From Cyanophora paradoxa CCMP329 (Eukaryota; Plantae; Glaucophyta): a DNA stretch of 64,000 nt. Position 1 is the first letter of the stretch. Every line of letters begins with the position of its first letter. The stretch spans positions 310,001 to 374,000 of the forward strand of contig QPMI01000039.1 of the NCBI GenBank assembly GCA_004431415.1, read 5' to 3'. Made by a program: the position numbers and the translations under genes. The notes under the pieces are model-generated. The model was not told where the DNA came from. It saw only the letters and a program-made list of their open reading frames with translations, and ran no database searches. Below, in pieces: positions 307 to 34,579 of the stretch.

Positions 307-736
307 ATGCTTATGCTGCTTATGCTGCTCATGCCTCTCGACCTTCGCGGTGAAATCACTCGTAGATCGACCACCACGGAGAACGATCGCGACGATCAAG
401 AAGTAGAGGAGGAGGAAGATCTAGAGGACTTGGAAGATTTTTCAGATGACGTCGGCGGTGGTGATATCGATGAGCTCGAGCCCGCGGCCGCGGCGGTGTA
501 CGAGTCCCACTCGAGCTCGGCGCCGCCGCAAGCTGCATCGATATCGTCACCGCGTACGCGTACGCGTTTGCGTGCCTCGAGGTCGTTTCCCGATGCATCG
601 GCTCCGCCAACTGCGAATTCAGATGAAGTCGACGATGACGTGCCTGTGACCGAGATGAAGCGTAGGCGCCGAATGACAGCGACGCCGCCGCCCCTCAGCT
701 GCGTTTCGCCAATCTCTTCGCCCAAGATGCCGGCGC
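307..736 (+). CDS. Host acidic/low-complexity ORF segment interrupted by the virus (5' part)
   Basis: Open frame runs into the TSD. Joining across the TSD gives in-frame ...KMPAPPSPLASSVDIDDYKHE. The true start is uncertain. Confidence 0.5.
731..736 (+). repeat. Left target-site duplication CGGCGC
   Basis: The same 6-mer directly flanks both termini. A 6-bp TSD is typical of RVE-integrase Polintons. Confidence 0.95.
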
Positions 737-807
737 ACACATAAAGATAAACGTATTTTTAACCCTCGCGTTCCGCTCAGGTTAAAAATACGTTTATCTT
801 TATGTGT
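737..807. repeat. Left terminal hairpin: 28-bp perfect stem, 15-nt loop
   Basis: ACACATAAAGATAAACGTATTTTTAACC (737-764), loop CTCGCGTTCCGCTCA, then GGTTAAAAATACGTTTATCTTTATGTGT (780-807). Confidence 0.95.
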
Positions 808-880
808 GTTAATACATATTTTATATAAATTTAACATGATATTATACATATTTATATGTAATTATCGATGTGAAAATGAT

Positions 881-975
881 AAATTCGATATAACCACGAT
901 TAAGTTTTATGCAAATTCGATATAATCACGATATATTTAATGTAAATCCGATATAATCCCGATTGCGTTTATCGT
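881..975 (+). repeat. Three ~31-32-bp iteron-like tandem repeats in the TIR (AAAT[T/C]CGATATAA[C/T]C[A/C]CGAT...)
   Basis: Units start at 881, 913 and 944; mirrored in the right TIR. Confidence 0.8.
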
Positions 976-1294
976 AAACAACTACAATTTACTGCGTGAT
1001 TCATTTAATGATAAGGTGGGGCGGTGGGGTCTGGTTGGGTCTGTTTTTCGAATTGCTATAAATTTCATGGCGTTCTAAATTTTTCTGAAAAGTGACCCCA
1101 CCACACCCCACCACCCCACCCTATCGATTAATTTATACTTCCACACTTAATTATATGGTAATTTCAATCTAATATATATCAATTTGAATAGTGGAATTGT
1201 TATGTGTTATGGTAATGGTTGGGTGTATGGTGGGGTGTAATCTCTTACGTAATTCAGTGTGGGAATCTCTACGATATAGAAGCGGAAATTAACA

Positions 1295-1361
1295 TGTAAA
1301 TACCGTTAGATCTGTACAGGTTGGGTGTAAATACCGTTAGATCTGTACAATGTGGGTGTAA
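1295..1361 (+). repeat. 31-bp tandem repeat x2 in the TIR (TGTAAATACCGTTAGATCTGTACA...)
   Basis: Units start at 1295 and 1326, with a partial third at 1357. Confidence 0.85.
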
Positions 1362-1904
1362 TCTCTCTCGTATTACAGTGTTAATACTAACATTTTATAT
1401 ATTTATCGATGCGGTGGGGCGGTGGGGTCTGGTGGGGCATGTTTTTGAAATTCATTATTTTTGGGGATCCGCTCAAAATTTTCTTGAAATTTGATCCCAC
1501 CACACCCCACCCTCCCACCCTATCCATTAATTCATACATCACACACTTATTTATATGGTAATTTCAATCTAATATATAGCAATTTGAAAAGTGGGAATGC
1601 TATAAATTATGGTAACGGTGGGGTGTAGGGTGGGGTGTCATTCCTTACTGATTCACGTAAGATTAACTCGGAAACCGCGCTACTCTATGCTTCTCCGCTC
1701 TCTCCAAACCGCTAAACATACACGTTACCCTCTCTTCTATCATCTCCTTTATTACTGATGTCTTACGCTCCGCTTCCGTATTCTTACCATCAATCGTGCG
1801 AAATTCAAAAAGTCCCGTGAGCAACCGAAAATGATTTAAGGAGAACGCGATACATTGGGGTAAGAAGAAAAATATTTTCTCTGTTTCAGATAAGTAAGGA
1901 TCAA

Positions 1905-4498: not shown

Positions 4499-5896
4499 AT
4501 GGATGTCACTACAACTCTTCAACGTCTTTCCCTCAAAGAGGCGCTAACCACGCCCGAAGAGGCAAAAGCGTTTTTCCTCGATAACTCGCTCATGCTCGGT
4601 CTGGAAGCGAAGACGAAACCCGTTCTCGTAACCGTTAGTCCATCAACAACCTACGATAACAACGTTGGTCAACGCGTTTCTTTCAAACTTCCCCGCTACA
4701 ATTTCATCGGTAAAATCGAACTCGCTTTTGATCTTCCCGAACTAACCGCTTTCGAAGGCGATACTGACCTTGTGCGAAACGGTTACACTCGCCCCGTCGG
4801 TTCGCTTGTGCAACGCCTTGAAATCTCTTACGGTTCTTACACTTTCCACGTCCCGTCAGATTTCCTGGCGATTTTCCCGCTGGTCTACTATTCAGAGGAT
4901 CAGTTGGCGAAAAAGAAGCGTTCTATGGGAATGCTCCACGGTATTCCCGCTCACGGAACCAACCGTAAAGGTGGCGCTTTCTTTGTTGAGATCCCGGTAC
5001 CGTGGTTAAACAGTTACCTACCACTCGGTGCGCTCTCGGGTGAGATGGTTGTTACTGTTTGGTTCAAAGAAGCTAACAAGGGTTACCTTGAAACTTCTTA
5101 TGGCGGTCGCGCTCTTCCGGTTGTTGGTGCTGCTGCGGATCAAACCGAAAATGATGGTCTCGGCTCAGCTACTGGTGTAACTCTTGCTAATGTTGGTCAA
5201 AACATCACCACTGGTACTATTACTGGGTTCGAAGTTGCTGGAACTATTCCACCAATGACCCATTACATCTCCATTAAGTCTCCTCGCCTTTACATGCATG
5301 CTATCAATGTTTCCGATGAACTGTTCGCTACGGTTATTGAGAAGGTCAAGACTACCGGTATGGCGATTCCATCACTCGACATTGGTTTCGTCGATGTCAC
5401 CGGTCTTGCTGCGAAAGGTAACACTCAACCCAACCGAATTAACCTTAGCCAAATCTCCGGTCTGGTTTATGCTCTTCTTGTCTCTGTCCGTGATGATGGA
5501 GGTATCGATTCTTCTAACGGTTCTCACAGCGTCCTTAAAACGCTTGCGAATGAGAAGGATATCACGATGACTTGTGAGATCAACGGACAGCGTCTTTATT
5601 CCACGGAGCCAATCCCGCTACTCAAAGGTGCGGAACTCATCGCCGATGCCTTCAAATGCTCGAACATGGACAAAGAAGCAAACCGTTACGTTCTTACAGG
5701 TCTACCTTTCTGCGCTGACGGTGAGAAGGCGATTCGCAATATCGCACAGAGTGGATATGTTGACCTTACGAACTCGTCGTCATCGTTCCTAACTCTGTAT
5801 CTCCCTGCCGATCGCACAATTACTGTTAACGTTCGCGCTCTCATGCACAGTTTCATAATTTGTGACCGCGATGGAATTCGTAGAATTAATATGTAA
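4499..5896 (+). CDS. Major capsid protein (double jelly-roll), copy 1
   Basis: 465 aa from ATG 4499. GQRVSFKLPRYNFIGKIELAFDLP, LVQRLEISYG and FVEIPVPWLNSYLPLGAL resemble DJR MCP motifs. Lies between the penton and ATPase genes. Confidence 0.85.
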   Translation: MDVTTTLQRLSLKEALTTPEEAKAFFLDNSLMLGLEAKTKPVLVTVSPSTTYDNNVGQRVSFKLPRYNFIGKIELAFDLPELTAFEGDTDLVRNGYTRPVGSLVQRLEISYGSYTFHVPSDFLAIFPLVYYSEDQLAKKKRSMGMLHGIPAHGTNRKGGAFFVEIPVPWLNSYLPLGALSGEMVVTVWFKEANKGYLETSYGGRALPVVGAAADQTENDGLGSATGVTLANVGQNITTGTITGFEVAGTIPPMTHYISIKSPRLYMHAINVSDELFATVIEKVKTTGMAIPSLDIGFVDVTGLAAKGNTQPNRINLSQISGLVYALLVSVRDDGGIDSSNGSHSVLKTLANEKDITMTCEINGQRLYSTEPIPLLKGAELIADAFKCSNMDKEANRYVLTGLPFCADGEKAIRNIAQSGYVDLTNSSSSFLTLYLPADRTITVNVRALMHSFIICDRDGIRRINM

Positions 5897-5956: not shown

Positions 5957-6739
5957 ATGGATGATGTCCCCGAATTTAACGCTGGGGAAATGATAAAACC
6001 ACCTTTTCGCGTCCTCGCAATCGGAAAATCAGCTACGGGCAAGTCAGAAGCGGTAAAGTATTGGTTAAAGCAACTTCACGATGCAAAAAAGATAGATGTG
6101 GTTCTCGTTGTAAGTGGGACATCATTCAATCATTTTTGGAGAGAAGTTGCAACGTTGGAACTCGGTAAATGGGATGCGCCTTACATCGCTAAACTTCTCG
6201 ATGAAAGACAAGAGAAAATAGAGAAAGGAGAACCCGTTAACCAATTGTGTGTAGTTCTCGATGATCTTATAGATAATGAGATAGTCGATCTAACCCGCGA
6301 CAAAATAATTGGCTCTCTTTACAGTCGTGGGCGCCATTCGAAAATTTCGATTATTTGCATAACTCAGAAACTGCGTAAGGTTTCTTCAACCATTCGCGTT
6401 AATTCGGATTATGCGATGTTTCTTAGCGCCGCCAATCGCAAAGAACTGGAAGCGATTGAAGAAGAATACAATATTATGCGGGATAAAGACGCTTTCTATA
6501 AGATGTTTGAGGAGTATGTACATTCCTATCAGTTTCTCATATGGTCATCCGCTGATTATTCGGTAAAGTATTATGTAGATAAAGCGGAACTGGTTAAAAA
6601 CTTTGGATTCCCACGGTTTCATCGGAAGCCCAAAAAGAAAGAAGATGAATTACAACCGCCACAGAAAGAAGAAGCGCCAAAAGAGATTAAAAGCGCTGTT
6701 CATACTAATAAGTTGATGCGATATAAGAGTGGACTTTAA
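5957..6739 (+). CDS. A32-like (FtsK-HerA) genome packaging ATPase, copy 1
   Basis: Walker A GKSATGKS, Walker B VVLDD, and SRGRHSKISIICITQ. Confidence 0.92.
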   Translation: MDDVPEFNAGEMIKPPFRVLAIGKSATGKSEAVKYWLKQLHDAKKIDVVLVVSGTSFNHFWREVATLELGKWDAPYIAKLLDERQEKIEKGEPVNQLCVVLDDLIDNEIVDLTRDKIIGSLYSRGRHSKISIICITQKLRKVSSTIRVNSDYAMFLSAANRKELEAIEEEYNIMRDKDAFYKMFEEYVHSYQFLIWSSADYSVKYYVDKAELVKNFGFPRFHRKPKKKEDELQPPQKEEAPKEIKSAVHTNKLMRYKSGL

Positions 6740-13029: not shown

Positions 13030-13057
13030 AATTATCTTCATTATTATTAAAGATACA

Positions 13058-13789: not shown

Positions 13790-13815
13790 ATATATATCTT
13801 TTAAAGAGGAAATCA

Positions 13816-14064: not shown

Positions 14065-14266
14065 AATATTTGTAATAAGTATCGAATAATGCTTGAAGAA
14101 GTCTACAATATCATCTTAGCGAAACGTCAGATTTATGCCGTTAAATCTGCAATTGAAGAACGTAGACAGTAGCTTGTCCGGTCGCCAAAAATTGACAACC
14201 CAAAAAGGATTTAAAGGTACTGCGATATTACACACTGATAAAATATTTTCTCTGCTTAAAATAAGG

Positions 14267-14530
14267 ATGGCTGCGTTTGCCGATGATGTTAGCGTTGTTG
14301 AACTTGAATTTGATAGCGACGAATCCATGGACTCTCCAACTGAGAAAACTAAAACAAGCGCTGACGGTATCAGTTATAGAATCCGTAAGATCATTGCTCA
14401 ACGCAATAGATATAATGAGGATGCGGAATATCGTGAACTGAAAAAGAAGAAGGTATTAGAAGCGTATTACCGACGTAAAGCGGAGGAGGGAACCAATATG
14501 GGAAAGCGTGGAAGACCGCGCAAGTATTGA
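14267..14530 (+). CDS. AT-hook protein, copy 2
   Basis: Duplicate of 7976..8239. Confidence 0.65.
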   Translation: MAAFADDVSVVELEFDSDESMDSPTEKTKTSADGISYRIRKIIAQRNRYNEDAEYRELKKKKVLEAYYRRKAEEGTNMGKRGRPRKY

Positions 14531-14741
14531 ATAGAAAACCCCAATTGCCGCTGGACATCATTTCTTATTTTTCGAGCGGCTTACCGATTATATTCGGTAA
14601 TTCCGTTACCATTTCTCGATTGCCCGATTTAATCGATTTAATTCCCGATACGGAGGAAAAAGTATTTAAAGACAAGGCGCCAAAAAATGACAAGGAAGAA
14701 AAATATTTTCTCAACCTATTGTAGAAAAGAGAAAGTTGAAA

Positions 14742-17387
14742 ATGACCCCATCGGACAAGCTCGGCAATCTGCGCAAGTTTACCCCTGGAAAGGTAACATC
14801 TGGTATGTTTCTTAAAAATGTCAAAGCATCTCGAGATGCTGATAATCTCATGGAACTGGATGATGATGTTATTATTGATCGTATCAATAAGAGTTTGAAA
14901 AAACGACTGCATCCGACATGGGCTGAATGGCTCCAACTTGATCAGGTGACACGGGTTTATCTTGATCTCGATCGGTTCGTGGATTTGAAGCCCAACCTTG
15001 AAGACAACTACAAGGAAGCGGAAGAAACCGTTAGAGTATTGCGTGAGAAATTACATGATCTGACCGGCGCTACTATTGCTGTATCTGTTCGTCATCGTCG
15101 TGTTCGCCTTCTAAAAGAAGATGTTGACAAATTCAAGGTCTCTGCCCATTTCGTTTTCACTGATCTATGTTGTCGCCATGAAGATATCCCAAAACTCTTT
15201 ACTGAAATGGGTCTTGAGAAAAATGTAGAATTTGACAGTGGAGTTTACGGTTCACCACAGAATCTTGTGTGTCTTGGATGCTGCAAGGGGGAAAAAGTAG
15301 ATTTGGAGAACACTCGGGCGCGCGATATTGATAAGAACGTTCTATTTACTAAGTTTGTCGATTGCAAGGATATGCATGATAGTGATTTCTTCGTTCAATT
15401 TACCGATTGCCCCACATTGCTGGTGGACAAGACAAACTTTCACGTCTTCTCAGTGAACAAAACAGAGAAGAAGGAAGCGGAGCCGAAGAAGGAAGCCGAA
15501 CCAAAGAAGGAAGCGAAGCCGAAGAAGGAAACCAAGAAAACCACTAAAAACGAAGCTGCGAAAGAAGAGGTTGAAGATGAAGAGAAAGGTGGAGAAATTA
15601 CATTTGATCTTATGTACGGAGTTGTAATGGGTCTGAGTGCTGAACGCGCCGATACCTACAAATCCTGGATTGATACAGGTATTGCAATCATCAATGCTTG
15701 CGAAGACAACAAGATACCACGTAAACAGCAATTTGAGATATTCCATGACTTCTCACAAAAAAGTGAAAAGTTTGATTACGACGAATGCAATGACAAGTTC
15801 ATGAGTCTTTGCAAAGGCAAGAAGATGGTGGAAGGCAAACGGCTAACGTACGGTTCGCTGGTCTATTGGTTGAAAAAGGATGATATCGAACTTTATAATG
15901 AGTTGTTTCCCACCAAGTATGCATTCTTGCCCGAAGATTCCGACGACATTGATTATAAGACCGCAAAGATCCCACCAATCGTTGAGGATTACGCTACGCA
16001 TCGCCTTTACTTCAATGCGAGAATGCACCACATTGAAATGCTGGGTATTGTGATGCATTGGGATGAACAACAGCTTGCGTGGATCCCGAAAGATAGCCAA
16101 AAACTCGGCTCCAAACACTATCCACACCTGATGCATAAAATCGTTCTGAACAAGGGAACCGAGAAGGAAGTTGAGAAATGGATTCCCTCATTTCCGGAAT
16201 GGATCAAAGACCCACAGGCGACACGTTCCATGTACGTGGATTTCCTCCCGCCTCCGGCTAAACTGAGCGCCAAATGCAAATCTGTGTTTAATCTGTATCC
16301 TGGCTTTAAGATTGATCATGAGGTAGATGAAATCAAGGAATCACTACCGGAAGATGTGACCGAAGATATGATTAAGCCGTTTCTCACACATCTTCACCTG
16401 ATGTCGGGAGAAGACGATAACACATACCAATACCTTCTTAAATGGTTCGCTCACATGATGCAAAAACCTGGTGAACTTAACGGAGTGTCAATTATCCTAA
16501 TTGGTGAACAAGGCACTGGTAAAAACGTGTTGTTTGATCTGTTCGAGAAAAGCATTCTGGGTGATGCTCTTTCATATTCGACCGGCAAACCGAAAGATGA
16601 CCTGTTTGGTCGCTTTGCTCACAATCGCGAAGACAAGATCTTAATAGTTGTTAATGAGGCATCGGGCAAAGACACATTCGAAAATAGCGATATTCTCAAA
16701 GACCTTGTCACTACTAAAAAAATTACTATTGAACACAAGGGAATAGATTCATACGACAAAAAGAATTTCGCGCGTATTGTGTTCACAAGTAACAACAGTG
16801 TCCCTGTGAAGATCGAAGCGGGTGACCGTCGATTTGTTGTAGTAGAAGTGAGTAAGCGATACTGTAAGAATGTGGAGTACTTCACACCTCTTCTGAAATG
16901 GTTGAATGATATTCGGAATATCCGCAACATCACCCACTTCTTGCGCACAAAGGTGGATTGTGATAATATCAACTGGCAGGAGGAGCGCCCCAAGACCAAT
17001 AAGTATTATCTGGTTCAGCAAATCTCCGCACCAATCATTCTGATGTTTGCAAAGTGGTTAATGGATACTGGGGAGATTACCGAAATCAAGTGTAAGTTAA
17101 GCGGTCTCGCTTCTACATGGGAGTTATTCAAGACCTTCATTACGGAAAATAAATATAAGAACGATTACAACAGTAAGCGGTTCTATACGGAGATGCGAGG
17201 CACTTCATACATTCTTGTGAAAACCGCAAATGGTAAACCATACTACCATTTCATCTGGAACGAAATGCTGGCGGAATTCCGTAAGTTGAAGCTAATTGAT
17301 GATGATTCGATTAAGGAAGAACCTAACCCCAAGATTCCCGCCAAGAAAGCTGGGACGAAATTCGAAGATTCCGACGTTGAAGCGTAA
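14742..17387 (+). CDS. AEP primase - PriCT-2 - D5-like SF3 helicase
   Basis: AEP motifs RVYLDLD, KVSAHFVF and FDSGVY; PriCT ERADTYKSWIDTGIAI; helicase GEQGTGKN, VVNE, VFTSN and DRRF; EPKKEA repeat linker. Confidence 0.92.
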   Translation: MTPSDKLGNLRKFTPGKVTSGMFLKNVKASRDADNLMELDDDVIIDRINKSLKKRLHPTWAEWLQLDQVTRVYLDLDRFVDLKPNLEDNYKEAEETVRVLREKLHDLTGATIAVSVRHRRVRLLKEDVDKFKVSAHFVFTDLCCRHEDIPKLFTEMGLEKNVEFDSGVYGSPQNLVCLGCCKGEKVDLENTRARDIDKNVLFTKFVDCKDMHDSDFFVQFTDCPTLLVDKTNFHVFSVNKTEKKEAEPKKEAEPKKEAKPKKETKKTTKNEAAKEEVEDEEKGGEITFDLMYGVVMGLSAERADTYKSWIDTGIAIINACEDNKIPRKQQFEIFHDFSQKSEKFDYDECNDKFMSLCKGKKMVEGKRLTYGSLVYWLKKDDIELYNELFPTKYAFLPEDSDDIDYKTAKIPPIVEDYATHRLYFNARMHHIEMLGIVMHWDEQQLAWIPKDSQKLGSKHYPHLMHKIVLNKGTEKEVEKWIPSFPEWIKDPQATRSMYVDFLPPPAKLSAKCKSVFNLYPGFKIDHEVDEIKESLPEDVTEDMIKPFLTHLHLMSGEDDNTYQYLLKWFAHMMQKPGELNGVSIILIGEQGTGKNVLFDLFEKSILGDALSYSTGKPKDDLFGRFAHNREDKILIVVNEASGKDTFENSDILKDLVTTKKITIEHKGIDSYDKKNFARIVFTSNNSVPVKIEAGDRRFVVVEVSKRYCKNVEYFTPLLKWLNDIRNIRNITHFLRTKVDCDNINWQEERPKTNKYYLVQQISAPIILMFAKWLMDTGEITEIKCKLSGLASTWELFKTFITENKYKNDYNSKRFYTEMRGTSYILVKTANGKPYYHFIWNEMLAEFRKLKLIDDDSIKEEPNPKIPAKKAGTKFEDSDVEA

Positions 17388-17392
17388 CAAAT

Positions 17393-17614
17393 CACACCCC
17401 ACCCTACACCACACCGTTACCATAACCTCCTTGTAATTCCTTATTTTTATAAACTATTTTGTAGATTGAATTGTATGTGAATATAGTAAATAATAGAGAA
17501 GGTGGGAAGGTGGGGTGTGGTGGGGTCAAATTTTAAGAAAAGTTTGGGACGCTTCAAAATTCTAAGGAATTCTAAAAACATGCCCCACCTGACCCCACCC
17601 GCCCACCCTATCGA
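17393..17614 (+). repeat. Internal diverged copy of the ~230-bp TIR C-tract/G-tract module
   Basis: CACCCCACCCTACACC...CGTTACCATAA...GGTGGGGTGTGGTGGGGTCAAATTT...AAAAACATGCCCCACC.GACCCCACC, colinear with 33671-33905 and 34071-34300. Confidence 0.9.
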
Positions 17615-17657
17615 ACGCGTTCAAAATCCAAAATAAAAATGTTCCTTTATAATAAAG

Positions 17658-20600
17658 ATGCCCCGCCAAACCAACAGACTCATTAAAGAAAAGAAGAATG
17701 AAATACTTGGACTGTTAGGAACTCTCTTTGTTACGGGTGAGATCACCGAAGCGGAATTTGATAGAGAAGCCGCCATCTTAGATAGACGACCACGATTAGC
17801 ACAACTCAGAGATATTACAAATGACCTTTACGATCGCATGCAAAGAATGGAGGAGTTTATGGATGAAGGACAGAGATTAGGAGCAATTCAACCGGACATC
17901 GAAGATGGTGAAGCAATGAATCAAGCGTATTCATGGCTAACCTATCGCGCCCGAAACGAAGTAGTGGTTGATGCTATCGAATTCCTTGAAAGAATCGCAC
18001 CAAGTCTACCTCAACGCATTAAAACCCGCTTGGATCAACTGAATGCGGTTAAAGTACGTCTGACATTCGTATGTAAGTTTACCAAAGTAGGAAATCCACG
18101 AATCTACATCACCAAATACATTTACAGCGATTATTTCGTAATTACCCGATCCCGCAACATTAACACAGAAGTTCGCAAAGCGTTACAGAAAATGCAAGAG
18201 GAGATGACACAAGTAGATAGTTACCGCTTGGAACGTATCCAAATTCTAAGAGGTGTTATTATGTCTTATGCACCGGTTGGTGGTTGTTATTTCACAACTC
18301 CCGAATGGATCGCATCCAAAAAGGCAACAGTGAACGTTAAGAATATCGACGGGCAAGACTGTTTTAAGTACGCAATTTTGGCGTACCTACACAGAAAGGA
18401 TATTAACAAACACAAGAGCAACGAACCGAGCCAATATCGCCGATGGTTAAATGAACTCAATTTCGATGGTATTCAGTTTCCCGTTGCATGTGATGCTGAG
18501 GTAATCGATCGATTCGAAGAACTAAACCCCGATTTATCCATTAACATTTACGGAGCTGATAACTCCAAAGAGTGTTTCTTTCCGCTGCATCAATCAAGCA
18601 ACCCAAGGAGAAAGACCAAGATTAACCTTTTACTCATCGAAAACACCGAAGACGATCGGGGACACTACATTACTATCATGTCTTTTAGTCGTCTTCTGAA
18701 AACTACGTTTGATAAAGCATGTGATGGTCGCATTTATTACTGTGAAACCTGCCTGTCGCGTTTCAGAACTCAGGAGAAATTAGACCTACATGTTGAAGCA
18801 AACCGCTGCATTGATTGGAGGGAGAGCAAAGGTAAATGCCCAAAGCCGGGAAGCGTAATTGAATTCGGTCTGCAACATCTACGTAAAAGCGTTTGGCTAC
18901 CTGTAATCTGTTACGTTAAAGTCGAAGATCATTCGGTTGCTATTGATGCTCAGAGGAGTAAAAGAGAGATTAAAGCGGTTTCATTGAGAGTGGTAATGGG
19001 AGAAGAAGTGAGATCATACCAATTTGAGGGAGCTGATCCGCTTGGTTCTCTCTTTGCTGCTCTACAAGATATCAGACCCGAAATAGTTGAAACGCTGTTT
19101 AGAAATATTCCGATGCATCCACTCACAGATGATCAGAAGGCGGAGTACAAGATAACAAAATACTGCTATATTTGCTCTCAGAGATTCACCCATGAAAACT
19201 TCCCGGTTCGGGATCATTGTCACCAATCCGGCGATTTTATCGGAAAGGCATGCCGAAACTGTAACCTCCACAGGCGAATTTCAAAGCAAACCAAAGTAGC
19301 TATTGTGGTAGATCAAATGGATGAATGCGGACATGGAATATTCCGCAAAATCGCCCAACAAGACGATAAACTACGTGTTGAGATTCTGAGCAAGAATTTC
19401 GATCAATACCTATCGCTTCAATGGGGTATGTGGAAGTTCATCGATGCTTCCCATTTTATGGATTTCCAATCTGTGGATGTGGAGGATTTAATGAGGAAAT
19501 TCGAAGCATTCCGCAAATTGGCGTTTTCTCAATACGGATTGGATCCCGCTCATTATGTGAGCGCACCGGGTCTATCTTGGGATGCAATGCTAAAACACAC
19601 GAAGGTAAAGATTGGACTTATTGATGATGTAGAGAAATACGAATTTGTTGAGAGAGCCATTCGCGGTGGATTTGCTACCATGCCCACACGATACGCAAAG
19701 GTAGAGACCCCCGAAGATCATATAGTATTGTTGGACGCAAATAATCTTTATGGGTATGCACTCAGTCAACCACTACCAATCGGAGATTATCGATGGGAAG
19801 ACATCACAGAGGCACTTAAAGAGGTAGAGGGACGAAGCGCATTTATTGAAGTTGACCTTGAATACCCTACAACTCTTGAAGATCATTACGATTTCCCACT
19901 GATTGTGAATAAAGAAGTGATCACCAATGAGATGCTTGGTGATTATCAAAATAAACTATTAGATCTGACGGGCGAAAAGATCAGCAAAGACCCAAAACTT
20001 ACAGCGACATTTACGCCCAAGAATAAATACGTGATTGCCCGACCTCTTCTTAATTACATCGTTAAGAAGGGTGTGATTGTAAAAACAATACATAGAGTTC
20101 TCTCATTTGCTACTTCCCCATTCATGAAATCATATATTGGTCTGAATACTCTACTCCGCCACGAATCTACTAACCATTTCGAAAGCGACTTCTTTAAACT
20201 CATGAACAATGCAATTTATGGTAAATGCTTGGAGTCTTGCAGGGGTCGCTCAACTGTCAAGATCGCTAACAGTGAGAAACTGTGTAAGAAATACGCAGCA
20301 AGCCCACTTATCAAAGCAACCAATGTATTAAACGAAAACGCTGTTGCCTTTGAGATGTATTCGAAGCATGTTAACTTAGATAAACCCGTTGCAATTGGCG
20401 CTTTCGTGTTGGATTTCGCGAAACTACATAATTATGAGTTCTTCTACGATGTGGTAAGAAAGAAGTGGGAAACAGCTAAACTACTGTTTCACGATACCGA
20501 TTCGTTCTGTCTTTTCTTGAAAACGAATAATCTCAATGAAGATATGAAAGAGATAGGTGAGCATCTCGATAGGAGCAATTACGATAAATCCCATCCTCTT

Positions 20601-20939
20601 GTGAGTATCAGGAACCGCATGGTTCCCGGTAAATATAAAAATGAGTTCCCAAACGCAAAGATCGTGGAGTATGTGGGTCTGAGGTCGAAACTCTATGCTT
20701 TCAGAACTGAGACCAACGAAAAAGTGAAGATGTCGGGGACTTCCTCGAAAGAAGTACACTTCGACGATTTTAAGAAATGCCTATTGGAAGGCATCATAAA
20801 AACAGTATCAGTAACAAACAAGCGAAGGCAAGACCACAACTTATATGACTTGGAGAGCAGAAGGGTCGCTCTAAACCAACTCGATAGCAAACGGAAGATA
20901 TCAGCCGACGGCATTCACAGCATTCCATTTGGTCTTTAA
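17658..20939 (+). CDS. Protein-primed family B DNA polymerase (Polinton type) with vOTU-like, Zn-finger and endonuclease-VII-like inserts and a degenerate exonuclease
   Basis: LDANNLYG, KLMNNAIYGK, HDTDS, GLRSKLY, YGLDPAHYVSAPGLSWDAMLK, VRDHCHQSG and NVKNIDGQDCF...GHY. Confidence 0.95.
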   Translation: MPRQTNRLIKEKKNEILGLLGTLFVTGEITEAEFDREAAILDRRPRLAQLRDITNDLYDRMQRMEEFMDEGQRLGAIQPDIEDGEAMNQAYSWLTYRARNEVVVDAIEFLERIAPSLPQRIKTRLDQLNAVKVRLTFVCKFTKVGNPRIYITKYIYSDYFVITRSRNINTEVRKALQKMQEEMTQVDSYRLERIQILRGVIMSYAPVGGCYFTTPEWIASKKATVNVKNIDGQDCFKYAILAYLHRKDINKHKSNEPSQYRRWLNELNFDGIQFPVACDAEVIDRFEELNPDLSINIYGADNSKECFFPLHQSSNPRRKTKINLLLIENTEDDRGHYITIMSFSRLLKTTFDKACDGRIYYCETCLSRFRTQEKLDLHVEANRCIDWRESKGKCPKPGSVIEFGLQHLRKSVWLPVICYVKVEDHSVAIDAQRSKREIKAVSLRVVMGEEVRSYQFEGADPLGSLFAALQDIRPEIVETLFRNIPMHPLTDDQKAEYKITKYCYICSQRFTHENFPVRDHCHQSGDFIGKACRNCNLHRRISKQTKVAIVVDQMDECGHGIFRKIAQQDDKLRVEILSKNFDQYLSLQWGMWKFIDASHFMDFQSVDVEDLMRKFEAFRKLAFSQYGLDPAHYVSAPGLSWDAMLKHTKVKIGLIDDVEKYEFVERAIRGGFATMPTRYAKVETPEDHIVLLDANNLYGYALSQPLPIGDYRWEDITEALKEVEGRSAFIEVDLEYPTTLEDHYDFPLIVNKEVITNEMLGDYQNKLLDLTGEKISKDPKLTATFTPKNKYVIARPLLNYIVKKGVIVKTIHRVLSFATSPFMKSYIGLNTLLRHESTNHFESDFFKLMNNAIYGKCLESCRGRSTVKIANSEKLCKKYAASPLIKATNVLNENAVAFEMYSKHVNLDKPVAIGAFVLDFAKLHNYEFFYDVVRKKWETAKLLFHDTDSFCLFLKTNNLNEDMKEIGEHLDRSNYDKSHPLVSIRNRMVPGKYKNEFPNAKIVEYVGLRSKLYAFRTETNEKVKMSGTSSKEVHFDDFKKCLLEGIIKTVSVTNKRRQDHNLYDLESRRVALNQLDSKRKISADGIHSIPFGL

Positions 20940-21124: not shown

Positions 21125-22423
21125 ATGCCCTCAGCACAGATTGGTTTAAGACCTACTCCAAAAATTGTAAAGAAAAGTTTAAAAGATGATCAAGGTTATA
21201 CACTACCTATAACCATTCCTGTCGAAGAGAAGAACACACGAATCTTAAAGAAGTCTGAGATGGTTAAAGAACTGATCCCGAAAGCATTACCTACTGAGAC
21301 TGTAACGAAAGAATCAAAGATCGCGAAGAAATTCTATGATCCGCGCACCGGTTATAAAGGTTTTGGTGCAATGAGAAAAGAACTTCCAGAGGAAAACTAC
21401 AAGAAGATGAAAGAATGGTATGATAAACAGGAAGTCGTTCAGATTAACGCGCCAACCCTTTCAAGAAAGAGAGACCCAATGATACCAATTAGGCAACCTC
21501 TCGATACCTACGTAATCGATCTTCTGTTTTTTCCGGCTTATAAGAAACAAAACGACGGTTACGATACATTTATGTCCGCGATGGAATCAACGCTTAGAAC
21601 GGGTTTTATCATTCCAATGAGAGATAAGAGCGCAATTACGGCTCTTTCAGCGTTTCAGCAACTACAACAAAGAGTTCCGCGACCAATTGTACGCGTTCAA
21701 AGCGATAGTGGAAGCGAATTTACAAATACAATGTTTACCTCATACCTTGCTAAAAAGTTCATCGATCATCAGATTAGCGATGTCGCAGATCATCGAAGCC
21801 AAGGTAGAATAGAAGCGTTTAACAAGCAGATCAAACGCCTTATTACGAACTATTGTATAGCAAACAACACCGCGCGATTCTTCGATGTATTGGGTGACAT
21901 AGAGTATAATTATAATCATACTGTCCATTCAGCGACTAAAAGAAAACCCGCAGAAACCACAGATGAGCATTATAGAGAAATTATAGGTTTAGAAGATGAA
22001 AAGTTTAAGAAGTCGATGGCTTACTTAGATGGTATCAAACAGGGTATGTTTGTGAGAGTGAGAATAGAAAAGAATCCGTTCGCTAAACAGGGTGTCAATT
22101 GGTCGCGAATCGTCTATACTGTTGAAGGTCGTGAAGGTTTCAAGTTCAGATTACGAAATCCAAATGGTGAAATTGTCGAAGGGAGGTTTGCTTTCCACGA
22201 ACTGTTACCGATTACAGGTGTTGAATACCACGAAGTACCAACAGTGGATGCACTCAAACAAGCAAAAGAAGAAGCACGGGTTGATTCGGCGATTCGTAAG
22301 GAAGGCATCGAAAAAGCGGATGATGTCCCAGAAGAACCGCTTTTACAAGCAAGATTAAAGAAAAAAAACAAAGTAACAAGAGAATTAAAAAAACTTACAA
22401 TAAATGGAACTGAAAAGCTCTAA
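21125..22423 (+). CDS. Retroviral-like (RVE, DDE) integrase
   Basis: YVIDLL, VQSDSGSEF, GRIEAFNKQIK and YNHTVHSATKRKP. No chromodomain is evident. Confidence 0.93.
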   Translation: MPSAQIGLRPTPKIVKKSLKDDQGYTLPITIPVEEKNTRILKKSEMVKELIPKALPTETVTKESKIAKKFYDPRTGYKGFGAMRKELPEENYKKMKEWYDKQEVVQINAPTLSRKRDPMIPIRQPLDTYVIDLLFFPAYKKQNDGYDTFMSAMESTLRTGFIIPMRDKSAITALSAFQQLQQRVPRPIVRVQSDSGSEFTNTMFTSYLAKKFIDHQISDVADHRSQGRIEAFNKQIKRLITNYCIANNTARFFDVLGDIEYNYNHTVHSATKRKPAETTDEHYREIIGLEDEKFKKSMAYLDGIKQGMFVRVRIEKNPFAKQGVNWSRIVYTVEGREGFKFRLRNPNGEIVEGRFAFHELLPITGVEYHEVPTVDALKQAKEEARVDSAIRKEGIEKADDVPEEPLLQARLKKKNKVTRELKKLTINGTEKL

Positions 22424-23979: not shown

Positions 23980-24028
23980 CTTTACTTTATCGGAATTTAA
24001 TAAATCTCTATATGTAGAGTAACCAGGG

Positions 24029-30232: not shown

Positions 30233-31075
30233 ATGGGCGAATATAATCGAGTCCAATTACCAGTTTACGCATTGGGTGCGCCCGCGGTTCACTTTCGACA
30301 ACACGAGGTTGCCGACGAAATTCGCGGTGTGGAATCGACGGAACGCGCTAACTCCGCGAATGCATTTGATAAAAACAGCATGATACGTGTTAAAGAACTA
30401 CGCGCCGACAAGAATTCGGGAGTGGTTAAAACGACTCAACTTCTTGTAACAAATGCGAATTTTAACGCGGGAATCGGGCAACCTGACGCATGGGGTGTGG
30501 ATATTAGAACGTTAGATTTTGACGGAGAACGTGCCGCCGCTGTTGTCCGATCGGGAGGCGCTGTTATTGGCGGTGGTTGTCGTGTGTCGGGTATGCTTGC
30601 ATCCTCCGTTGCTGTTACCGATATTCCCGATACTCTACCTGAACATGCGGACAATCCGCAACGTATCCGTATGTACACTCCATGTGGAGACTATCCTTAC
30701 GTGTTTGGAATGGTCAGAGTTGGGGTAGATAACGTAAATGCAACACAACCCGATGGAATTATGGGAAATTGGTTATTACCAAATATTGCTATTCCTAAAT
30801 CTATTGAGTCTATATGTCGTTCACAAAATGGTATTATCGGACCGGCTTATACTTTCTTTGTTCAGGGAATCGGACGCGGTAGAGGTTGGGTGGAATTCGA
30901 CAACCAGAACCCCGCTACGTTTAATGTTTGGACAACAGAAGTAGGAGGTTACGATATTCTCATTTTCGGAATGCGAACAGATCCAGCCGCTGTGGCGGCT
31001 ACACGTGGTCTCAATCCCGATAACAACCTAAATAACTTCTACGATGATCCGTTCCCAGGTGATCCCACACCATAA
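30233..31075 (+). CDS. Fibre/spike-like protein, paralogue A
   Basis: Shares ESTE.A, KELR.DKN.G.VKTT.LLVTNANFNA and RSGGA.IG.G.RV.G with the next ORF. Confidence 0.65.
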   Translation: MGEYNRVQLPVYALGAPAVHFRQHEVADEIRGVESTERANSANAFDKNSMIRVKELRADKNSGVVKTTQLLVTNANFNAGIGQPDAWGVDIRTLDFDGERAAAVVRSGGAVIGGGCRVSGMLASSVAVTDIPDTLPEHADNPQRIRMYTPCGDYPYVFGMVRVGVDNVNATQPDGIMGNWLLPNIAIPKSIESICRSQNGIIGPAYTFFVQGIGRGRGWVEFDNQNPATFNVWTTEVGGYDILIFGMRTDPAAVAATRGLNPDNNLNNFYDDPFPGDPTP

Positions 31076-31094
31076 TTATGTTTTAATATATTAA

Positions 31095-31940
31095 ATGGCG
31101 GCACCCGCTCCACCCGAGCGTATCTTAACAGCGCAACTTTCATTAGCCGCGCCGGCAAATCACGTATTACAACATGCTGTTATCGATAATGTCGATGGTC
31201 TCGAATCTACCGAACTTGCACCTACTCTTAATACTTTTGGTGATACGCATAAATTGCGACTGAAAGAGTTACGATGTGACAAAAATAACGGAATTGTGAA
31301 AACTACGAAACTTCTTGTTACAAATGCAAACTTTAACGCTTTTTATGGAGATCCCGATAGTTATAATGATGATAACAAGGTTACTAACTTTGCTTATGAA
31401 TCGAGAAACGGAGCAATTAAATGTAGATCGGGTGGCGCTTATATTGGGGACGGACTAAGGGTCGGTGGTATCATCGGAGCGCCTCTAATCGTAAATGACC
31501 AACCAAACCCCGATGATGAAAACACACGTATTAGGACGTATTGCCCAGGTATGAATGAACCTTACCTAATTAAGATTTATACAATCGTTATTAGTTTACA
31601 GACAGCGGTAGCCGATGTTTTAGAACCGTTAGGAAATCATTATAGATATAGAGACACGATACCAGAGGACATTTACGCATTATGTAGAAGAACCGACGGA
31701 GCAAGACCACGCCTAACGATACATATTATCCCCATAGATAATTTCGGTCAAGCGTTTCACTCAATACCTCTTTTAGATACACAAGATAACCAATTTATAA
31801 TAAGAGCTACACAACTTGGAAATTATCGAGTCATTATGTATGCCGAAAGAAACGACGCAATCGCAACAGCTAACCGATTCGGTCAATATCTTAATACCAA
31901 TCTATACAATCCCGTCGGCGGTAGCGATCCACAACCATAA
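31095..31940 (+). CDS. Fibre/spike-like protein, paralogue B
   Basis: Paralogue of 30233..31075 with a diverged C-terminal half ending ...YAERND. Confidence 0.65.
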   Translation: MAAPAPPERILTAQLSLAAPANHVLQHAVIDNVDGLESTELAPTLNTFGDTHKLRLKELRCDKNNGIVKTTKLLVTNANFNAFYGDPDSYNDDNKVTNFAYESRNGAIKCRSGGAYIGDGLRVGGIIGAPLIVNDQPNPDDENTRIRTYCPGMNEPYLIKIYTIVISLQTAVADVLEPLGNHYRYRDTIPEDIYALCRRTDGARPRLTIHIIPIDNFGQAFHSIPLLDTQDNQFIIRATQLGNYRVIMYAERNDAIATANRFGQYLNTNLYNPVGGSDPQP

Positions 31941-31960: not shown

Positions 31961-32233
31961 ATGGATGAAAAAACAAGAAAGTTTATAGATACCGCTATGT
32001 CAGTCCATGGTAAGGATAAATTTGATTATAGCGACACTGTTTATAAGAAAGCGCAAGAAAAGGTATCTGTTAGATGCCTACAATGTAATAAAGTCTTTCA
32101 GACGTACGGATTTAATCACATTAAGGGGTCAGGATGTAGACAGTGTTCTAAGAAACACTCACATGCATACAGAAAAAAGACTACATGGGGAATAGTAATA
32201 GAAGAGAAGCCAATTATGTTGTACTTTGATTGA
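31961..32233 (+). CDS. DUF723-like zinc-ribbon protein (no nuclease domain)
   Basis: KFIDTAMSVHGKDKFDYSDTVY...CLQC...NHIKGSGCRQC. Confidence 0.7.
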   Translation: MDEKTRKFIDTAMSVHGKDKFDYSDTVYKKAQEKVSVRCLQCNKVFQTYGFNHIKGSGCRQCSKKHSHAYRKKTTWGIVIEEKPIMLYFD

Positions 32234-33029
32234 TTTCGTAGTTAGTCATAATGAGATGGTTCCTTTTCTTTTTTGATATACCATACACTTTACCATATGT
32301 ATGTCGAATAAAGGGTTTAAATAGCAATTTCATTAATAAAGCATCATTAACAACCATCATAACTTTGCATTTCGCGGTCTTCAATAGATCTTCTAAATCC
32401 AAAAAGAATTTTTCCAAATCGAATTCTACATTTTCGTAAAAGTCATTATTGCTATTAACGTATGGAGGATCAAGAAATATGAATGCATCCTCATCATCTT
32501 TGTATTTCAACACAATATCCCGATAATCCCCAAGAGATAAGTTAACATCTTGTAGGAAATCATCGTAAGGTATCTTCTTTTTAAGAGTTGTATATGCACT
32601 CAACTTCACGTTCCGTTTTTTGAAATCACGGAGGGTTTTAACATTTAAAACGCTGTTTTTAAGAAGATAGAAATGATGGGCTAAGTAATCCATTACATCT
32701 TTACGATCATGTTGTAGAAAACTCTTATAAACTTCTTTATGCTCTTCTATATTGCTTACTGCTTCGAACTGTTGAAGACTATCTAAAAGTTTTACTTTAC
32801 TGTTAGGGTCTTTCATTGTATTCAAAAAAAGTATATGTGTTTCGTCGTTATCATTCATAAAGTAATCAAAACGTTCTTTATGCTTTTCCCAAAGATAGAA
32901 ACTAAATGCACCTGAACCACAAAATGGTTCTATTATTTTATTTATGCCTTCTAAATCGATAAAAGGATTGATTGTATCCATTTCATTGTATTTATTACCG
33001 ACATACTTATGGTAAAAGTGAGTCTTCAT
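32214..33029 (-). CDS. Dam-like (D12 class) DNA N6-adenine methyltransferase
   Basis: YVGNK, motif I IEPFCGSGA, MND, and motif IV FIFLDPPY. Confidence 0.9.
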   Translation of the reverse strand: MKTHFYHKYVGNKYNEMDTINPFIDLEGINKIIEPFCGSGAFSFYLWEKHKERFDYFMNDNDETHILFLNTMKDPNSKVKLLDSLQQFEAVSNIEEHKEVYKSFLQHDRKDVMDYLAHHFYLLKNSVLNVKTLRDFKKRNVKLSAYTTLKKKIPYDDFLQDVNLSLGDYRDIVLKYKDDEDAFIFLDPPYVNSNNDFYENVEFDLEKFFLDLEDLLKTAKCKVMMVVNDALLMKLLFKPFIRHTYGKVYGISKKKRNHLIMTNYEINQSTT

Positions 33030-33248
33030 TTACCATAGATAAAGAAAAACAAATTACATATGGAGACGGGATAAAGAAATTAAGACTTTACCAGTCTTGT
33101 TTCTTGTAATAATGCAAGTATCAAAGCAACTTGGACATGTTTTATGATAATATACCATTATGATATCGACAAGTTCATATGGGAATACTTTTGCTAAGAT
33201 GGTTCGCATCTTACCAATTGTTTTTTAATTTTTCTATATAATTCATAA

Positions 33249-33647
33249 ATGAATCATCGCGGCTTCCATGTAATGTTAGATTACAAGTTCAACCATCCAT
33301 TAATGATAGGATTGGACAACTTAGAGACCACAACGAAGTGGTTAATGCAATTTTTTCAATCTATTATTCAAGAACAAGGTATCAGAGTAGTACACAAGCA
33401 CTGCGAGATTTTCGATGGTGGTCTTTCACCTCCGGGTTTTGCTATGGTTCTTCTCCTTGATGAGAGTCATTTAACCGCTCATTGTTACTCAGATCAGGGA
33501 ATGTTAGCAATCGATATATTCACTTGTGGTACGGAAGCGGAGCGTAAGACATCAGTAATAAAGGAGATGATAGAAGAGAGGGTAACGTGTATGTTTAGCG
33601 GTTTGGAGAGAGCGGAGAAGCATAGAGTAGCGCGGTTTCCGAGTTAA
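33249..33647 (+). CDS. speD: Prokaryotic-type (class 1) pyruvoyl-dependent S-adenosylmethionine decarboxylase proenzyme
   Basis: GFHVMLD...GFAMVLLLDESHLTAHCYSDQGMLAIDIFTCG, with the ES self-cleavage site and the DxFTCG signature. Confidence 0.87.
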   Translation: MNHRGFHVMLDYKFNHPLMIGLDNLETTTKWLMQFFQSIIQEQGIRVVHKHCEIFDGGLSPPGFAMVLLLDESHLTAHCYSDQGMLAIDIFTCGTEAERKTSVIKEMIEERVTCMFSGLERAEKHRVARFPS

Positions 33648-34573
33648 TCTTACGTGAATCAGTAAGGAATGACACCCCACCCTACACCCCACCGTTACCA
33701 TAATTTATAGCATTCCCACTTTTCAAATTGCTATATATTAGATTGAAATTACCATATAAATAAGTGTGTGATGTATGAATTAATGGATAGGGTGGGAGGG
33801 TGGGGTGTGGTGGGGTCAAATTTCAAGAAAATTTTGAGCGGATCCCCAAAAATAATGAATTTCAAAAACATGCCCCACCAGACCCCACCGCCCCACCGCA
33901 TCGATAAATATATAAAATGTTAGTATTAACACTGTAATACGAGAGAGATTACACCCACATTGTACAGATCTAACGGTATTTACACCCAACCTGTACAGAT
34001 CTAACGGTATTTACATGTTAATTTCCGCTTCTATATCGTAGAGATTCCCACACTGAATTACGTAAGAGATTACACCCCACCATACACCCAACCATTACCA
34101 TAACACATAACAATTCCACTATTCAAATTGATATATATTAGATTGAAATTACCATATAATTAAGTGTGGAAGTATAAATTAATCGATAGGGTGGGGTGGT
34201 GGGGTGTGGTGGGGTCACTTTTCAGAAAAATTTAGAACGCCATGAAATTTATAGCAATTCGAAAAACAGACCCAACCAGACCCCACCGCCCCACCTTATC
34301 ATTAAATGAATCACGCAGTAAATTGTAGTTGTTTACGATAAACGCAATCGGGATTATATCGGATTTACATTAAATATATCGTGATTATATCGAATTTGCA
34401 TAAAACTTAATCGTGGTTATATCGAATTTATCATTTTCACATCGATAATTACATATAAATATGTATAATATCATGTTAAATTTATATAAAATATGTATTA
34501 ACACACATAAAGATAAACGTATTTTTAACCTGAGCGGAACGCGAGGGTTAAAAATACGTTTATCTTTATGTGT
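33530..34573 (-). repeat. Right terminal inverted repeat (1,044 bp)
   Basis: Starts TACGGAAGCGGAGCG at 33530 and ends ...TATCTTTATGTGT at 34573. Confidence 0.95.
34503..34573. repeat. Right terminal hairpin: 28-bp perfect stem, 15-nt loop
   Basis: Arms at 34503-34530 and 34546-34573, loop TGAGCGGAACGCGAG. Confidence 0.95.
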
Positions 34574-34579
34574 CGGCGC
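34574..34579 (+). repeat. Right target-site duplication CGGCGC
   Basis: ...TTTATGTGT|CGGCGC matches CGGCGC|ACACATAAA... at the left end. Confidence 0.95.

What the first reader, a model, noticed from the sequence alone, without database searches (positions are those of the whole stretch)
32214..33647. SAM decarboxylase paired divergently with a DNA adenine methyltransferase
Seen: a 132-aa bacterial-type AdoMetDC (ES cleavage site, DIFTCG) lies head-to-head with a Dam-like MTase, 219 bp apart, and no spermidine synthase is present. Established: AdoMetDC turns SAM into decarboxylated SAM, the aminopropyl donor for polyamines and an inhibitor of methyltransferases. Phage T3 SAMase depletes SAM to defeat host defence, and eukaryotes often silence endogenous viruses by methylation. 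I do not know AdoMetDC as a standard Polinton gene. Inference, three testable options: (a) anti-silencing by SAM depletion, (b) polyamine supply for genome packaging, (c) dcSAM used by the Dam-like enzyme for a non-methyl (aminopropyl) DNA modification.
Basis: partly seen in the sequence, partly recalled or inferred. Interest (0 to 1): 0.85.

Follow-up and report, generated by a model that had tools for sequence, protein, structure and literature searches.

The report
Likely arginine decarboxylase in Polinton-like virus
A small virus integrated in a eukaryote's genome carries a gene that looks like a SAM decarboxylase but groups with enzymes shown to decarboxylate arginine, so it likely makes agmatine for polyamines, and the DNA methyltransferase beside it is likely an unrelated passenger rather than its partner.

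Summary
Both genes are real, intact and 219 bp apart, at the right end of an integrated Polinton-like virus (737-34573; 1044-bp inverted repeats, 6-bp target duplication). The name 'SAM decarboxylase' is probably wrong. The 132-aa protein falls, with 100/100 support, on the side of Poseidoniales/planctomycete SpeD homologues that Li et al. 2023 showed to be arginine decarboxylases (SpeDA). Its relatives sit beside or are fused to agmatinase and deoxyhypusine-synthase-like enzymes (80 of 80 archaeal loci), never spermidine synthase (0 of 80). It shows purifying selection among sister copies (22 synonymous, 12 replacement changes). The pairing is not conserved: 0 of 77 loci of this methyltransferase family hold the decarboxylase, 0 of 20 viral decarboxylase contigs hold this methyltransferase, and a sister copy in the same organism appears to skip it. 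One other small virus has a different methyltransferase next door. The methyltransferase keeps ordinary SAM motifs and may methylate adenine or cytosine. What is new: SpeDA-type genes in Polinton-like viruses, virophage-like contigs and giant viruses, gained more than once; I found no report of this. The element also avoids GGCC and CTAG entirely, pointing to restriction pressure.

The parts
731..736 (.). Left target-site duplication CGGCGC
   Evidence: same six bases flank both ends
737..1780 (.). Left terminal inverted repeat, 1044 bp; ends in a 29-bp-arm hairpin; holds a headless copy of the decarboxylase 3' end (1663-1780, minus strand, no start codon in frame)
4499..5896 (+). Likely major capsid protein (465 aa), duplicated at about 10790-12187; identity inferred from size and place beside the packaging ATPase
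   Evidence: no Pfam or PHROG hit
5957..6739 (+). A32-type packaging ATPase
   Evidence: Pfam Pox_A32 E 1e-10
14742..17387 (+). Primase-helicase (PriCT-2, DUF5906)
17658..20939 (+). Likely protein-primed family B DNA polymerase with an endonuclease VII insert (polymerase motifs recognised from recall)
21125..22423 (+). rve-type integrase
   Evidence: Pfam rve E 0.006, below cut-off; fits the 6-bp target duplication
31961..32233 (+). 90-aa zinc-finger domain of the kind found in HNH/homing endonucleases, no nuclease domain; overlaps the methyltransferase stop by 20 bp
32214..33029 (-). Alpha-class (Dam/D12-type) DNA amino-methyltransferase, 271 aa; G11-x-K13, EPFCGSG, D60, DPPY intact; N6-adenine or N4-cytosine not settled; lowest GC of 18 element genes (0.31)
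33030..33248 (.). 219-bp AT-rich intergenic region between the two start codons
33249..33647 (+). Class 1b SpeD-fold pyruvoyl decarboxylase, 132 aa, SpeDA (arginine decarboxylase) type: SPPGF, ES73H, H78, C93, RF end; Ser81 where canonical enzymes have Pro
33530..34573 (.). Right terminal inverted repeat, 1044 bp, one mismatch to the left; begins in codon 94 of the decarboxylase
34574..34579 (.). Right target-site duplication CGGCGC

Best explanation
The 132-aa gene of this integrated Polinton-like virus likely encodes a self-cleaving, pyruvoyl-dependent arginine decarboxylase (SpeDA type) that would turn arginine into agmatine for the polyamine pool when the virus is active, and the neighbouring gene is likely an independent, ordinary SAM-using DNA methyltransferase that would protect the viral DNA from restriction enzymes. 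Shown: the element's borders, both intact ORFs, the fold and catalytic residues, the place in the tree, the neighbours and fusions of relatives, the lack of linkage, selection on the decarboxylase, and avoidance of several short sites. Inferred: self-cleavage at Glu72/Ser73; arginine as substrate (about 0.8); independence of the two genes (about 0.88); use of agmatine by host agmatinase or directly as a polycation during viral DNA replication and packaging (about 0.55); restriction by a co-infecting giant virus as the pressure behind the methyltransferase.
For: Substrate. Best hits are Poseidoniales (MGII) proteins at 40-50% identity, up to 116 bits, against 40-44 tblastn bits for the validated phage AdoMetDCs of S-PM2 and phiYS40. 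All 80 archaeal loci kept have a DHS-like gene, 15 of 80 an agmatinase, 0 of 80 a spermidine synthase within 4 kb; 5 of 5 such genomes hold one SpeD homologue and 0 of 5 a spermidine synthase (incomplete genomes). That is the speB-speDA-speY cluster whose Poseidoniales and MGII/III enzymes failed to complement E. coli speD and decarboxylated only arginine (PMC10407285). Trees put the protein on that side of a 100/100 branch, inside a 14-row subclade at 95/86; grouping with S-PM2 or with speE-adjacent enzymes is rejected (p-AU 4e-6 and 2e-76). Pro at +9 from the cleavage Glu: 24 of 24 canonical, 0 of 79 MGII, Ser here. Of 30 long relatives scanned, 5 are fused to DHS, 1 to agmatinase, 5 to a PQ-loop unit, none to spermidine synthase. 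Function kept: 22 synonymous vs 12 replacement changes among sister copies, pN/pS about 0.13, p 1e-8. No coupling: 0 of 77 loci of this methyltransferase family hold a SpeD homologue; 0 of 20 viral SpeD contigs hold this methyltransferase in the DNA fetched; a contig joining 32231 to 33109 skips the methyltransferase in 3 of 4 runs; other copies have unlike DNA upstream of 33160 and 33224; GC 0.31 vs 0.41. Most PLV genomes carry methyltransferases (10.64898/2026.06.19.733378). Restriction pressure: GGCC 0 vs 18.8, CTAG 0 vs 36.3, TGCCA 1 vs 28.1, CTGAAG 0 vs 12.2 expected from synonymous shuffles.
Against: No enzyme assay; the validated SpeDA sequences themselves (DAC51064, AIF02979 and others) were not among the accessions listed, so the link to them runs through taxon, single copy number and gene cluster. 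Figures 7 and 8 of PMC10407285 could not be seen, so which proline the paper calls diagnostic is my inference; the validated phiYS40 AdoMetDC also lacks the +9 Pro. A tree with the protein just outside the canonical group is not rejected (p-AU 0.104, on the smaller set). Substrate switches recur in this family. 4 of 30 long relatives are fused to an NNMT-type and 1 to a SET methyltransferase domain. One small-virus contig (L219) has its SpeD gene 89 bp from a different, 165-aa DNA methyltransferase, and L275 has a canonical-side SpeD one gene away from the same type. The skipping joint rests on a 30-letter side with unknown filling. Host agmatinase could not be checked (no genome held).
Confidence: 0.68

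Rival explanations
1. Same enzyme, other purpose: the arginine decarboxylase acts as an arginine sink that lowers arginine available to a co-infecting giant virus or to host nitric-oxide signalling, rather than supplying polyamines.
For: The element has no downstream agmatine enzyme; relatives are often fused to a PQ-loop transporter unit, as a transport-and-decarboxylate pair would be; PLVs can lower giant-virus yield (abstract of PMC12220804 in search listing). The arginine need of DNA viruses and the Chlamydia arginine sink are recalled, not from a call.
Against: Giant-virus contigs carry the same enzyme clade (L082, L089-L091, L215, L216), which fits a benefit to viral replication better than an anti-viral role; measured SpeDA turnover is low (kcat/Km 20-2200 per M per s).
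Confidence: 0.15
2. It is a true SAM decarboxylase, used for spermidine supply with the host synthase or to drain SAM and weaken host silencing.
For: Fold and catalytic residues are those of AdoMetDC; giant viruses HaV01 and YLPV2 have validated class 1b AdoMetDCs (PMC9992855); basal placement not rejected; some relatives are fused to SAM-dependent methyltransferase domains.
Against: Tree, motifs, neighbours and fusions; below NCBIfam cut-off; draining SAM would also starve the element's own methyltransferase.
Confidence: 0.09
3. The pair puts an aminopropyl group from decarboxylated SAM on viral DNA.
For: Adjacency here; L219 and L275 show SpeD genes near another DNA methyltransferase; a precedent for cofactor synthase plus retuned methyltransferase exists in phages (CmoA/CmoX, PMC12783734 abstract).
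Against: Needs SAM as substrate; no linkage in 77 + 20 loci; a sister copy appears to lack the methyltransferase; Lys13 and motifs I, II, IV are the same as in 16 of 16 relatives, none of whose family loci has a decarboxylase nearby. That Lys13 holds the SAM carboxylate is recalled from Dam structures; my search for a source found none.
Confidence: 0.04
4. It decarboxylates ornithine (SpeDC) or lysine.
For: Ornithine decarboxylases also arose from SpeD in phages and prokaryotes; putrescine would need no further enzyme.
Against: The ETS-type proteins that resemble the paper's SpeDC domains lie far away in the tree and the window has ESH; the tested members of this clade had no ornithine or lysine activity.
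Confidence: 0.04

Closest known systems
SpeDA pyruvoyl arginine decarboxylases of Ca. Poseidoniales, marine group II/III, Gimesia maris, Solirubrobacter, Nannochloropsis and Tribonema (Li et al. 2023, PMC10407285)
   Same: Class 1b SpeD fold, ES-H-C catalytic set, no spermidine synthase partner; 40-50% identity to Poseidoniales proteins from the same speB/speY clusters; same side of the tree.
   Different: Viral, with no agmatinase or homospermidine synthase beside it; closest to an unnamed subclade with PQ-loop fusions; activity untested.
Virus-encoded SpeD homologues (Li et al. 2023, PMC9992855): true AdoMetDCs of S-PM2, phiYS40, HaV01, YLPV2; arginine decarboxylase of pelagiphage HTVC201P
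   Same: A small SpeD-fold auxiliary metabolic gene in a virus.
   Different: In the parts read, eukaryotic viruses had only true AdoMetDCs, and the words Polinton and virophage do not occur outside one reference; this gene is from another clade.
Chlorovirus PBCV-1 arginine decarboxylase pathway (as described in PMC9992855)
   Same: A eukaryotic DNA virus making agmatine from arginine.
   Different: PBCV-1 uses a PLP enzyme and encodes the whole route to homospermidine; here one pyruvoyl enzyme stands alone in a 27-kb virus.
Alpha-class DNA amino-methyltransferases: M.CbeI (N4-C, GGCC; PDB 7M6B), E. coli Dam, DpnM, T4 Dam; PLV methyltransferases
   Same: Motif order and fold (TM 0.61-0.67); common PLV cargo.
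   Different: 16-22% identity; target base and site unknown; no cognate nuclease, only a zinc-finger remnant.
CmoA/CmoX carboxy-SAM DNA modification of phage S-B43 (PMC12783734)
   Different: There the genes typically occur together and the pocket is retuned; here neither is seen.

Membership tests
Class 1b SpeD-fold pyruvoyl decarboxylase | Fold plus Ser (pyruvoyl), His and Cys equivalent to T. maritima S63, H68, C83 | tested here: met
   S73, H78, C93 invariant in 39 rows; aligned to 1tlu; fold match
Class 1b SpeD-fold pyruvoyl decarboxylase | Self-cleavage into alpha and beta chains | not testable with these tools
   needs protein
True AdoMetDC (SpeD) | Falls among validated or speE-linked AdoMetDCs | tested here: not met
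   100/100 split; nesting rejected; a basal place not rejected
True AdoMetDC (SpeD) | Conserved proline of the central region (taken as the HTWP proline; figure not seen) | tested here: not met
   Ser81; 24 of 24 canonical have Pro, 0 of 79 MGII; phiYS40 is an exception
True AdoMetDC (SpeD) | NCBIfam TIGR03330 cut-off | tested here: not met
   51.2 vs 75.65 bits
SpeDA arginine decarboxylase (Poseidoniales/Gimesia/stramenopile clade) | Member of the clade by tree and motifs | tested here: met
   validated accessions not in hand, linked through taxon and speB/speY cluster
SpeDA arginine decarboxylase (Poseidoniales/Gimesia/stramenopile clade) | Decarboxylates arginine, not SAM, ornithine or lysine | not testable with these tools
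   assay needed
SpeDA arginine decarboxylase (Poseidoniales/Gimesia/stramenopile clade) | A route from agmatine to putrescine in the same genome | tested here: inconclusive
   none in the window; host genome not held
Alpha-class DNA amino-methyltransferase | Motif I near the N-terminus, DPPY after the recognition domain, Dam fold | tested here: met
Dam (N6-adenine, GATC) | Adenine target and GATC site | tested here: inconclusive
   below TIGR00571 cut-off; nearest structure is an N4-cytosine enzyme; GATC neither depleted nor enriched
Polinton-like virus | Terminal inverted repeats, target duplication, integrase, packaging ATPase, replication gene, 15-40 kb | tested here: met
Polinton-like virus | Double-jelly-roll major capsid protein | tested here: inconclusive
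   465-aa candidate has no Pfam, PHROG or IMG/VR match; not folded
Coupled cofactor-synthase/DNA-modification system (CmoA/CmoX-like) | The two genes travel together | tested here: not met
   0 of 77 and 0 of 20 loci; skipped in a sister copy
Coupled cofactor-synthase/DNA-modification system (CmoA/CmoX-like) | Cofactor pocket changed relative to unpaired relatives | tested here: not met
   G11, K13, E34, P35, G38, D60, DPPY identical in 17 of 17 rows; sequence level only

The most novel reading that the evidence does not exclude
Small integrating DNA viruses of eukaryotes have repeatedly captured a one-gene arginine decarboxylase (this element; the L083/L084/L085/L087/L219 group; L213) and use it as a metabolic lever in the host-giant virus-small virus triangle: agmatine as a DNA-condensing polycation for their own virions, or an arginine drain on the helper giant virus. 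This would be the first polyamine-pathway enzyme with a role in Polinton-like viruses. The bolder chemistry, aminopropyl DNA from decarboxylated SAM, is not fully excluded but stands at about 0.04.
Probability: 0.25. Interest if true: 0.72.

Novelty: new member of a known kind. Interest (0 to 1): 0.45.

Why it matters
It corrects a label that would mislead: automatic annotation calls this whole clade SAM decarboxylase, which invites SAM-depletion and DNA-hypermodification stories. Read as an arginine decarboxylase, it extends virus-encoded polyamine metabolism from phages and giant viruses to 15-30 kb Polinton-like viruses, where every gene is costly, and the gene is under selection in a multi-copy endogenous family. 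It is cheap to test. The site avoidance (no GGCC, no CTAG in 34 kb) gives a separate handle on the restriction enzymes of the unknown helper virus.

Tried and rejected
Own genome: not held, so host speE, agmatinase and other copies could not be searched directly. Single-protein scans of IMG/VR with the decarboxylase and the capsid candidate found nothing; the one metagenome scan gave 1 locus. Whole-record searches for the methyltransferase and spermidine synthase ran on only 2 of 5 viral records, both fragments, both empty: no weight given. Expression: no RNA holder listed; two guessed RNA runs laid nothing; not evidence either way. Summed contig depth is higher over the decarboxylase than over the methyltransferase, but the tool says depth is no copy number, so it is not used. 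Methyltransferase variants, 4 synonymous and 6 replacement of 10 listed (p 0.09), are inconclusive. Sigma-70 promoter scan of the intergenic region: 4 sites vs 4.2 in shuffles, and the wrong promoter type. First tree held one wrongly extracted row and long branches; 30 rows were dropped for (bad, long or redundant). The validated accessions were not found in 30 clusters looked up. The ESM Atlas gave no answer. No complex prediction was run: no binding is claimed. Rejected: a pseudogene cut by the terminal repeat (the C-terminus keeps the family's RF end and varies synonymously in sister copies); one shared origin with the other small-virus SpeD genes (p-AU 0.043; separate subclades).

Full report
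Setting. The window holds an AT-rich island (about 40% GC) in GC-rich, apparently intron-bearing eukaryotic DNA (host not identified). The island runs from 737 to 34573, between 1044-bp inverted repeats that differ at one base and are flanked by the duplication CGGCGC. It encodes an A32 ATPase, a primase-helicase, an rve integrase, a likely protein-primed polymerase, a patatin, a long fibre-like protein with an S74 chaperone domain and a capsid candidate without family match. A 6.3-kb block is duplicated in tandem at 99.86% with 7 gap positions, which may be an assembly artefact; without it the element is about 27.5 kb. This is an integrated Polinton-like virus. The stretch is held by 20 listed rows of one organism label, from 17 named studies, none on record as RNA, and the contigs show several diverged copies.

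Observation. Both ORFs are as described and 219 bp apart. The decarboxylase has E72-S73, H78 and C93, matching the residues needed for processing and catalysis in T. maritima AdoMetDC, and folds like it (pLDDT 90.7). Its last 38 codons lie in the right repeat, so a headless copy sits in the left one. The C-terminus ends in the RF motif that is invariant in the 39-row alignment, so it is not a chance read-through. Of the 40 best-supported differences listed (of 96), 34 fall in the gene: 22 synonymous, 12 replacement when scored one at a time, against 20% synonymous sites (pN/pS about 0.13, p 1e-8). The gene is under selection as protein.

Which decarboxylase. The 70 hits are dominated, where named, by Poseidoniales proteins, and the best 80 of 345 genome loci are all of that group by their titles. 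All 80 carry a deoxyhypusine-synthase-like gene, 15 an agmatinase, none a spermidine synthase within 4 kb, whereas 6 of 30 other loci from the same phylum have spermidine synthase beside SpeD. Li et al. 2023 (PMC10407285; read: parts 1-4 of 7 and the supplement text, figures not visible) describe this very cluster and show that the Poseidoniales and marine group II/III proteins do not restore spermidine and, with the Gimesia, Solirubrobacter, Nannochloropsis and Tribonema proteins, act only on arginine and form one clade. In three trees (47, 52 and 60 rows) the window protein lies with Poseidoniales and two proteins of planctomycete type (P0069 has a Pirellulales cluster member) across a 100/100 branch from canonical enzymes, including the validated S-PM2 and phiYS40 proteins. 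Forcing it beside S-PM2 or beside speE-linked enzymes is rejected; placing it just outside the canonical group is not (p 0.104), though with closer relatives added it nests in a subclade at 95/86. The full-library search found 422 proteins at E 0.001; of 130 scored among the best 150, none has the +9 proline. Of 30 long relatives, 5 are fused to DHS, 1 to agmatinase, 5 to a PQ-loop unit, 4 to an NNMT-type and 1 to a SET methyltransferase domain, none to spermidine synthase. I put arginine at about 0.8. Limits: no assay, validated sequences not in hand, and the proline marker fails for phiYS40.

Are the two genes a pair. The methyltransferase family is common in small AT-rich viral contigs, many with a packaging ATPase or helicase like the element's; 0 of 77 loci (1.01 Mb) hold any SpeD homologue. 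Four scans found 20 distinct viral contigs with a SpeD homologue; none holds this methyltransferase family in the DNA fetched (up to 10 kb each side). Six of them look like PLVs or virophages (L083, L084, L085, L087, L213, L219). In the first four the gene sits just upstream of the ATPase-capsid block. One of the six, L219, has an unrelated 165-aa methyltransferase 89 bp downstream. A scan with that enzyme gave 80 loci, of which 2 have SpeD within 3 kb: L219 itself and L275, whose SpeD is on the canonical side. Since most PLVs carry one or more methyltransferases among some 20 genes (10.64898/2026.06.19.733378, section 9 read; PMC6459981 passages), such adjacency is expected now and then. In the host's own runs a contig joins 32231 to 33109, skipping the methyltransferase, in 3 of 4 runs (shorter side 30 letters, filling unknown), and other decarboxylase copies have unlike DNA upstream. 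The two genes also differ in GC (0.31 and 0.41).

The methyltransferase. Motifs and fold are alpha-class. The nearest solved relative is M.CbeI, an N4-cytosine enzyme for GGCC first annotated as D12 adenine type (passages read), ahead of E. coli Dam, so 'adenine' is open. The N-terminal G-x-K and motifs I and IV are unchanged against 16 relatives. Earlier scan notes on phage pairs report loss of the carboxylate contact where a SAM decarboxylase is present (unchecked AI notes); no such loss is seen here at sequence level, with the role of Lys13 recalled from Dam structures. The element lacks GGCC, CTAG and CTGAAG entirely and has one TGCCA, with AGCT and GTAC at about 26-41% of expectation in a synonymous-shuffle control over 24,300 coding bases; the host flank shows no such gaps, and other small-virus contigs avoid their own sets. 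This is what restriction pressure leaves, and it fits a protective role, proposed for PLV methyltransferases; one survey found no methylation in a virophage that lacks such genes (PMC7253447 passages).

Mechanism. When the element is transcribed, the proenzyme would cleave itself at Glu72/Ser73 and decarboxylate arginine. Agmatine would enter host putrescine synthesis or act as a polycation, aiding viral translation, replication or packaging, as proposed for viral polyamine genes generally (PMC9992855; read: parts 1-3 of 7, term searches of text and supplement). Separately, the methyltransferase would mark a site that the element has not purged. An arginine-drain role is the main rival.

Novelty. 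The enzyme class and PLV methyltransferases are known. A SpeDA-clade gene in eukaryotic viruses is not described in what I read, and searches for Polinton-like + decarboxylase (5 papers listed, one opened, on another enzyme), virophage + adenosylmethionine decarboxylase, pyruvoyl arginine decarboxylase + virus since 2023 and Polinton-like + polyamine (0 papers) showed no report; two recent PLV preprints do not contain the word decarboxylase. Gene tables in supplements of PLV surveys, including closed bioRxiv files, were not seen and may list it under the AdoMetDC label. The window's gene and the L083 group come from different subclades, so small viruses gained it at least twice.

Verdict. A modest but new and testable addition to PLV biology: interest 0.45.

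Noticed in passing
window 737-34573: Complete absence of GGCC, CTAG and CTGAAG, one TGCCA, strong depletion of AGCT and GTAC, not seen in the host flank: a likely footprint of a helper virus's restriction enzymes.
   Followed up: partly
window 3860-16450: 6.3-kb tandem duplication of the capsid-ATPase-helicase block at 99.86% identity with indels that break the helicase in the first copy and the ATPase in the second; possibly a long-read assembly artefact.
   Followed up: no
window 737-808 and 34503-34573: Each end of the element is a perfect hairpin with 28-29-bp arms and a 15-nt loop.
   Followed up: no
window 17384-17628: An internal copy (about 78%) of the 400-bp subrepeat of the terminal repeats lies between the helicase and polymerase genes: possible origin or promoter, or the scar of a fusion of two elements.
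   Followed up: no
L174:29-982; P0293, P0304, P0313, P0336, P0416: Fusions of a single PQ-loop (three-helix) transporter unit to a SpeDA-type decarboxylase; they lie in the window protein's subclade where tested. A possible import-and-decarboxylate enzyme.
   Followed up: partly
P0309, P0315, P0343, P0398: Fusions of SpeDA-type decarboxylase with an NNMT/PNMT-type methyltransferase, two also with a DHS domain: a possible route to methylated polyamines.
   Followed up: no
L083:3869-4246, L084, L085, L087, L213, L219; L082, L089-L091, L215, L216: A viral clade of SpeDA-type genes shared by small PLV/virophage-like contigs and giant-virus contigs, suggesting exchange between them; in four small viruses it sits next to the ATPase-capsid block.
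   Followed up: partly
window 30233-31940: Two tandem paralogous genes (280 and 281 aa) of no known family after the fibre-like gene.
   Followed up: no
window 22420-24039: Patatin-like phospholipase fused to an F5/8 type C (discoidin) domain in the element.
   Followed up: no
L062:3932-5239; P0144, P0317, P0319: Poseidoniales-type fusions of the decarboxylase with DHS or with agmatinase.
   Followed up: partly
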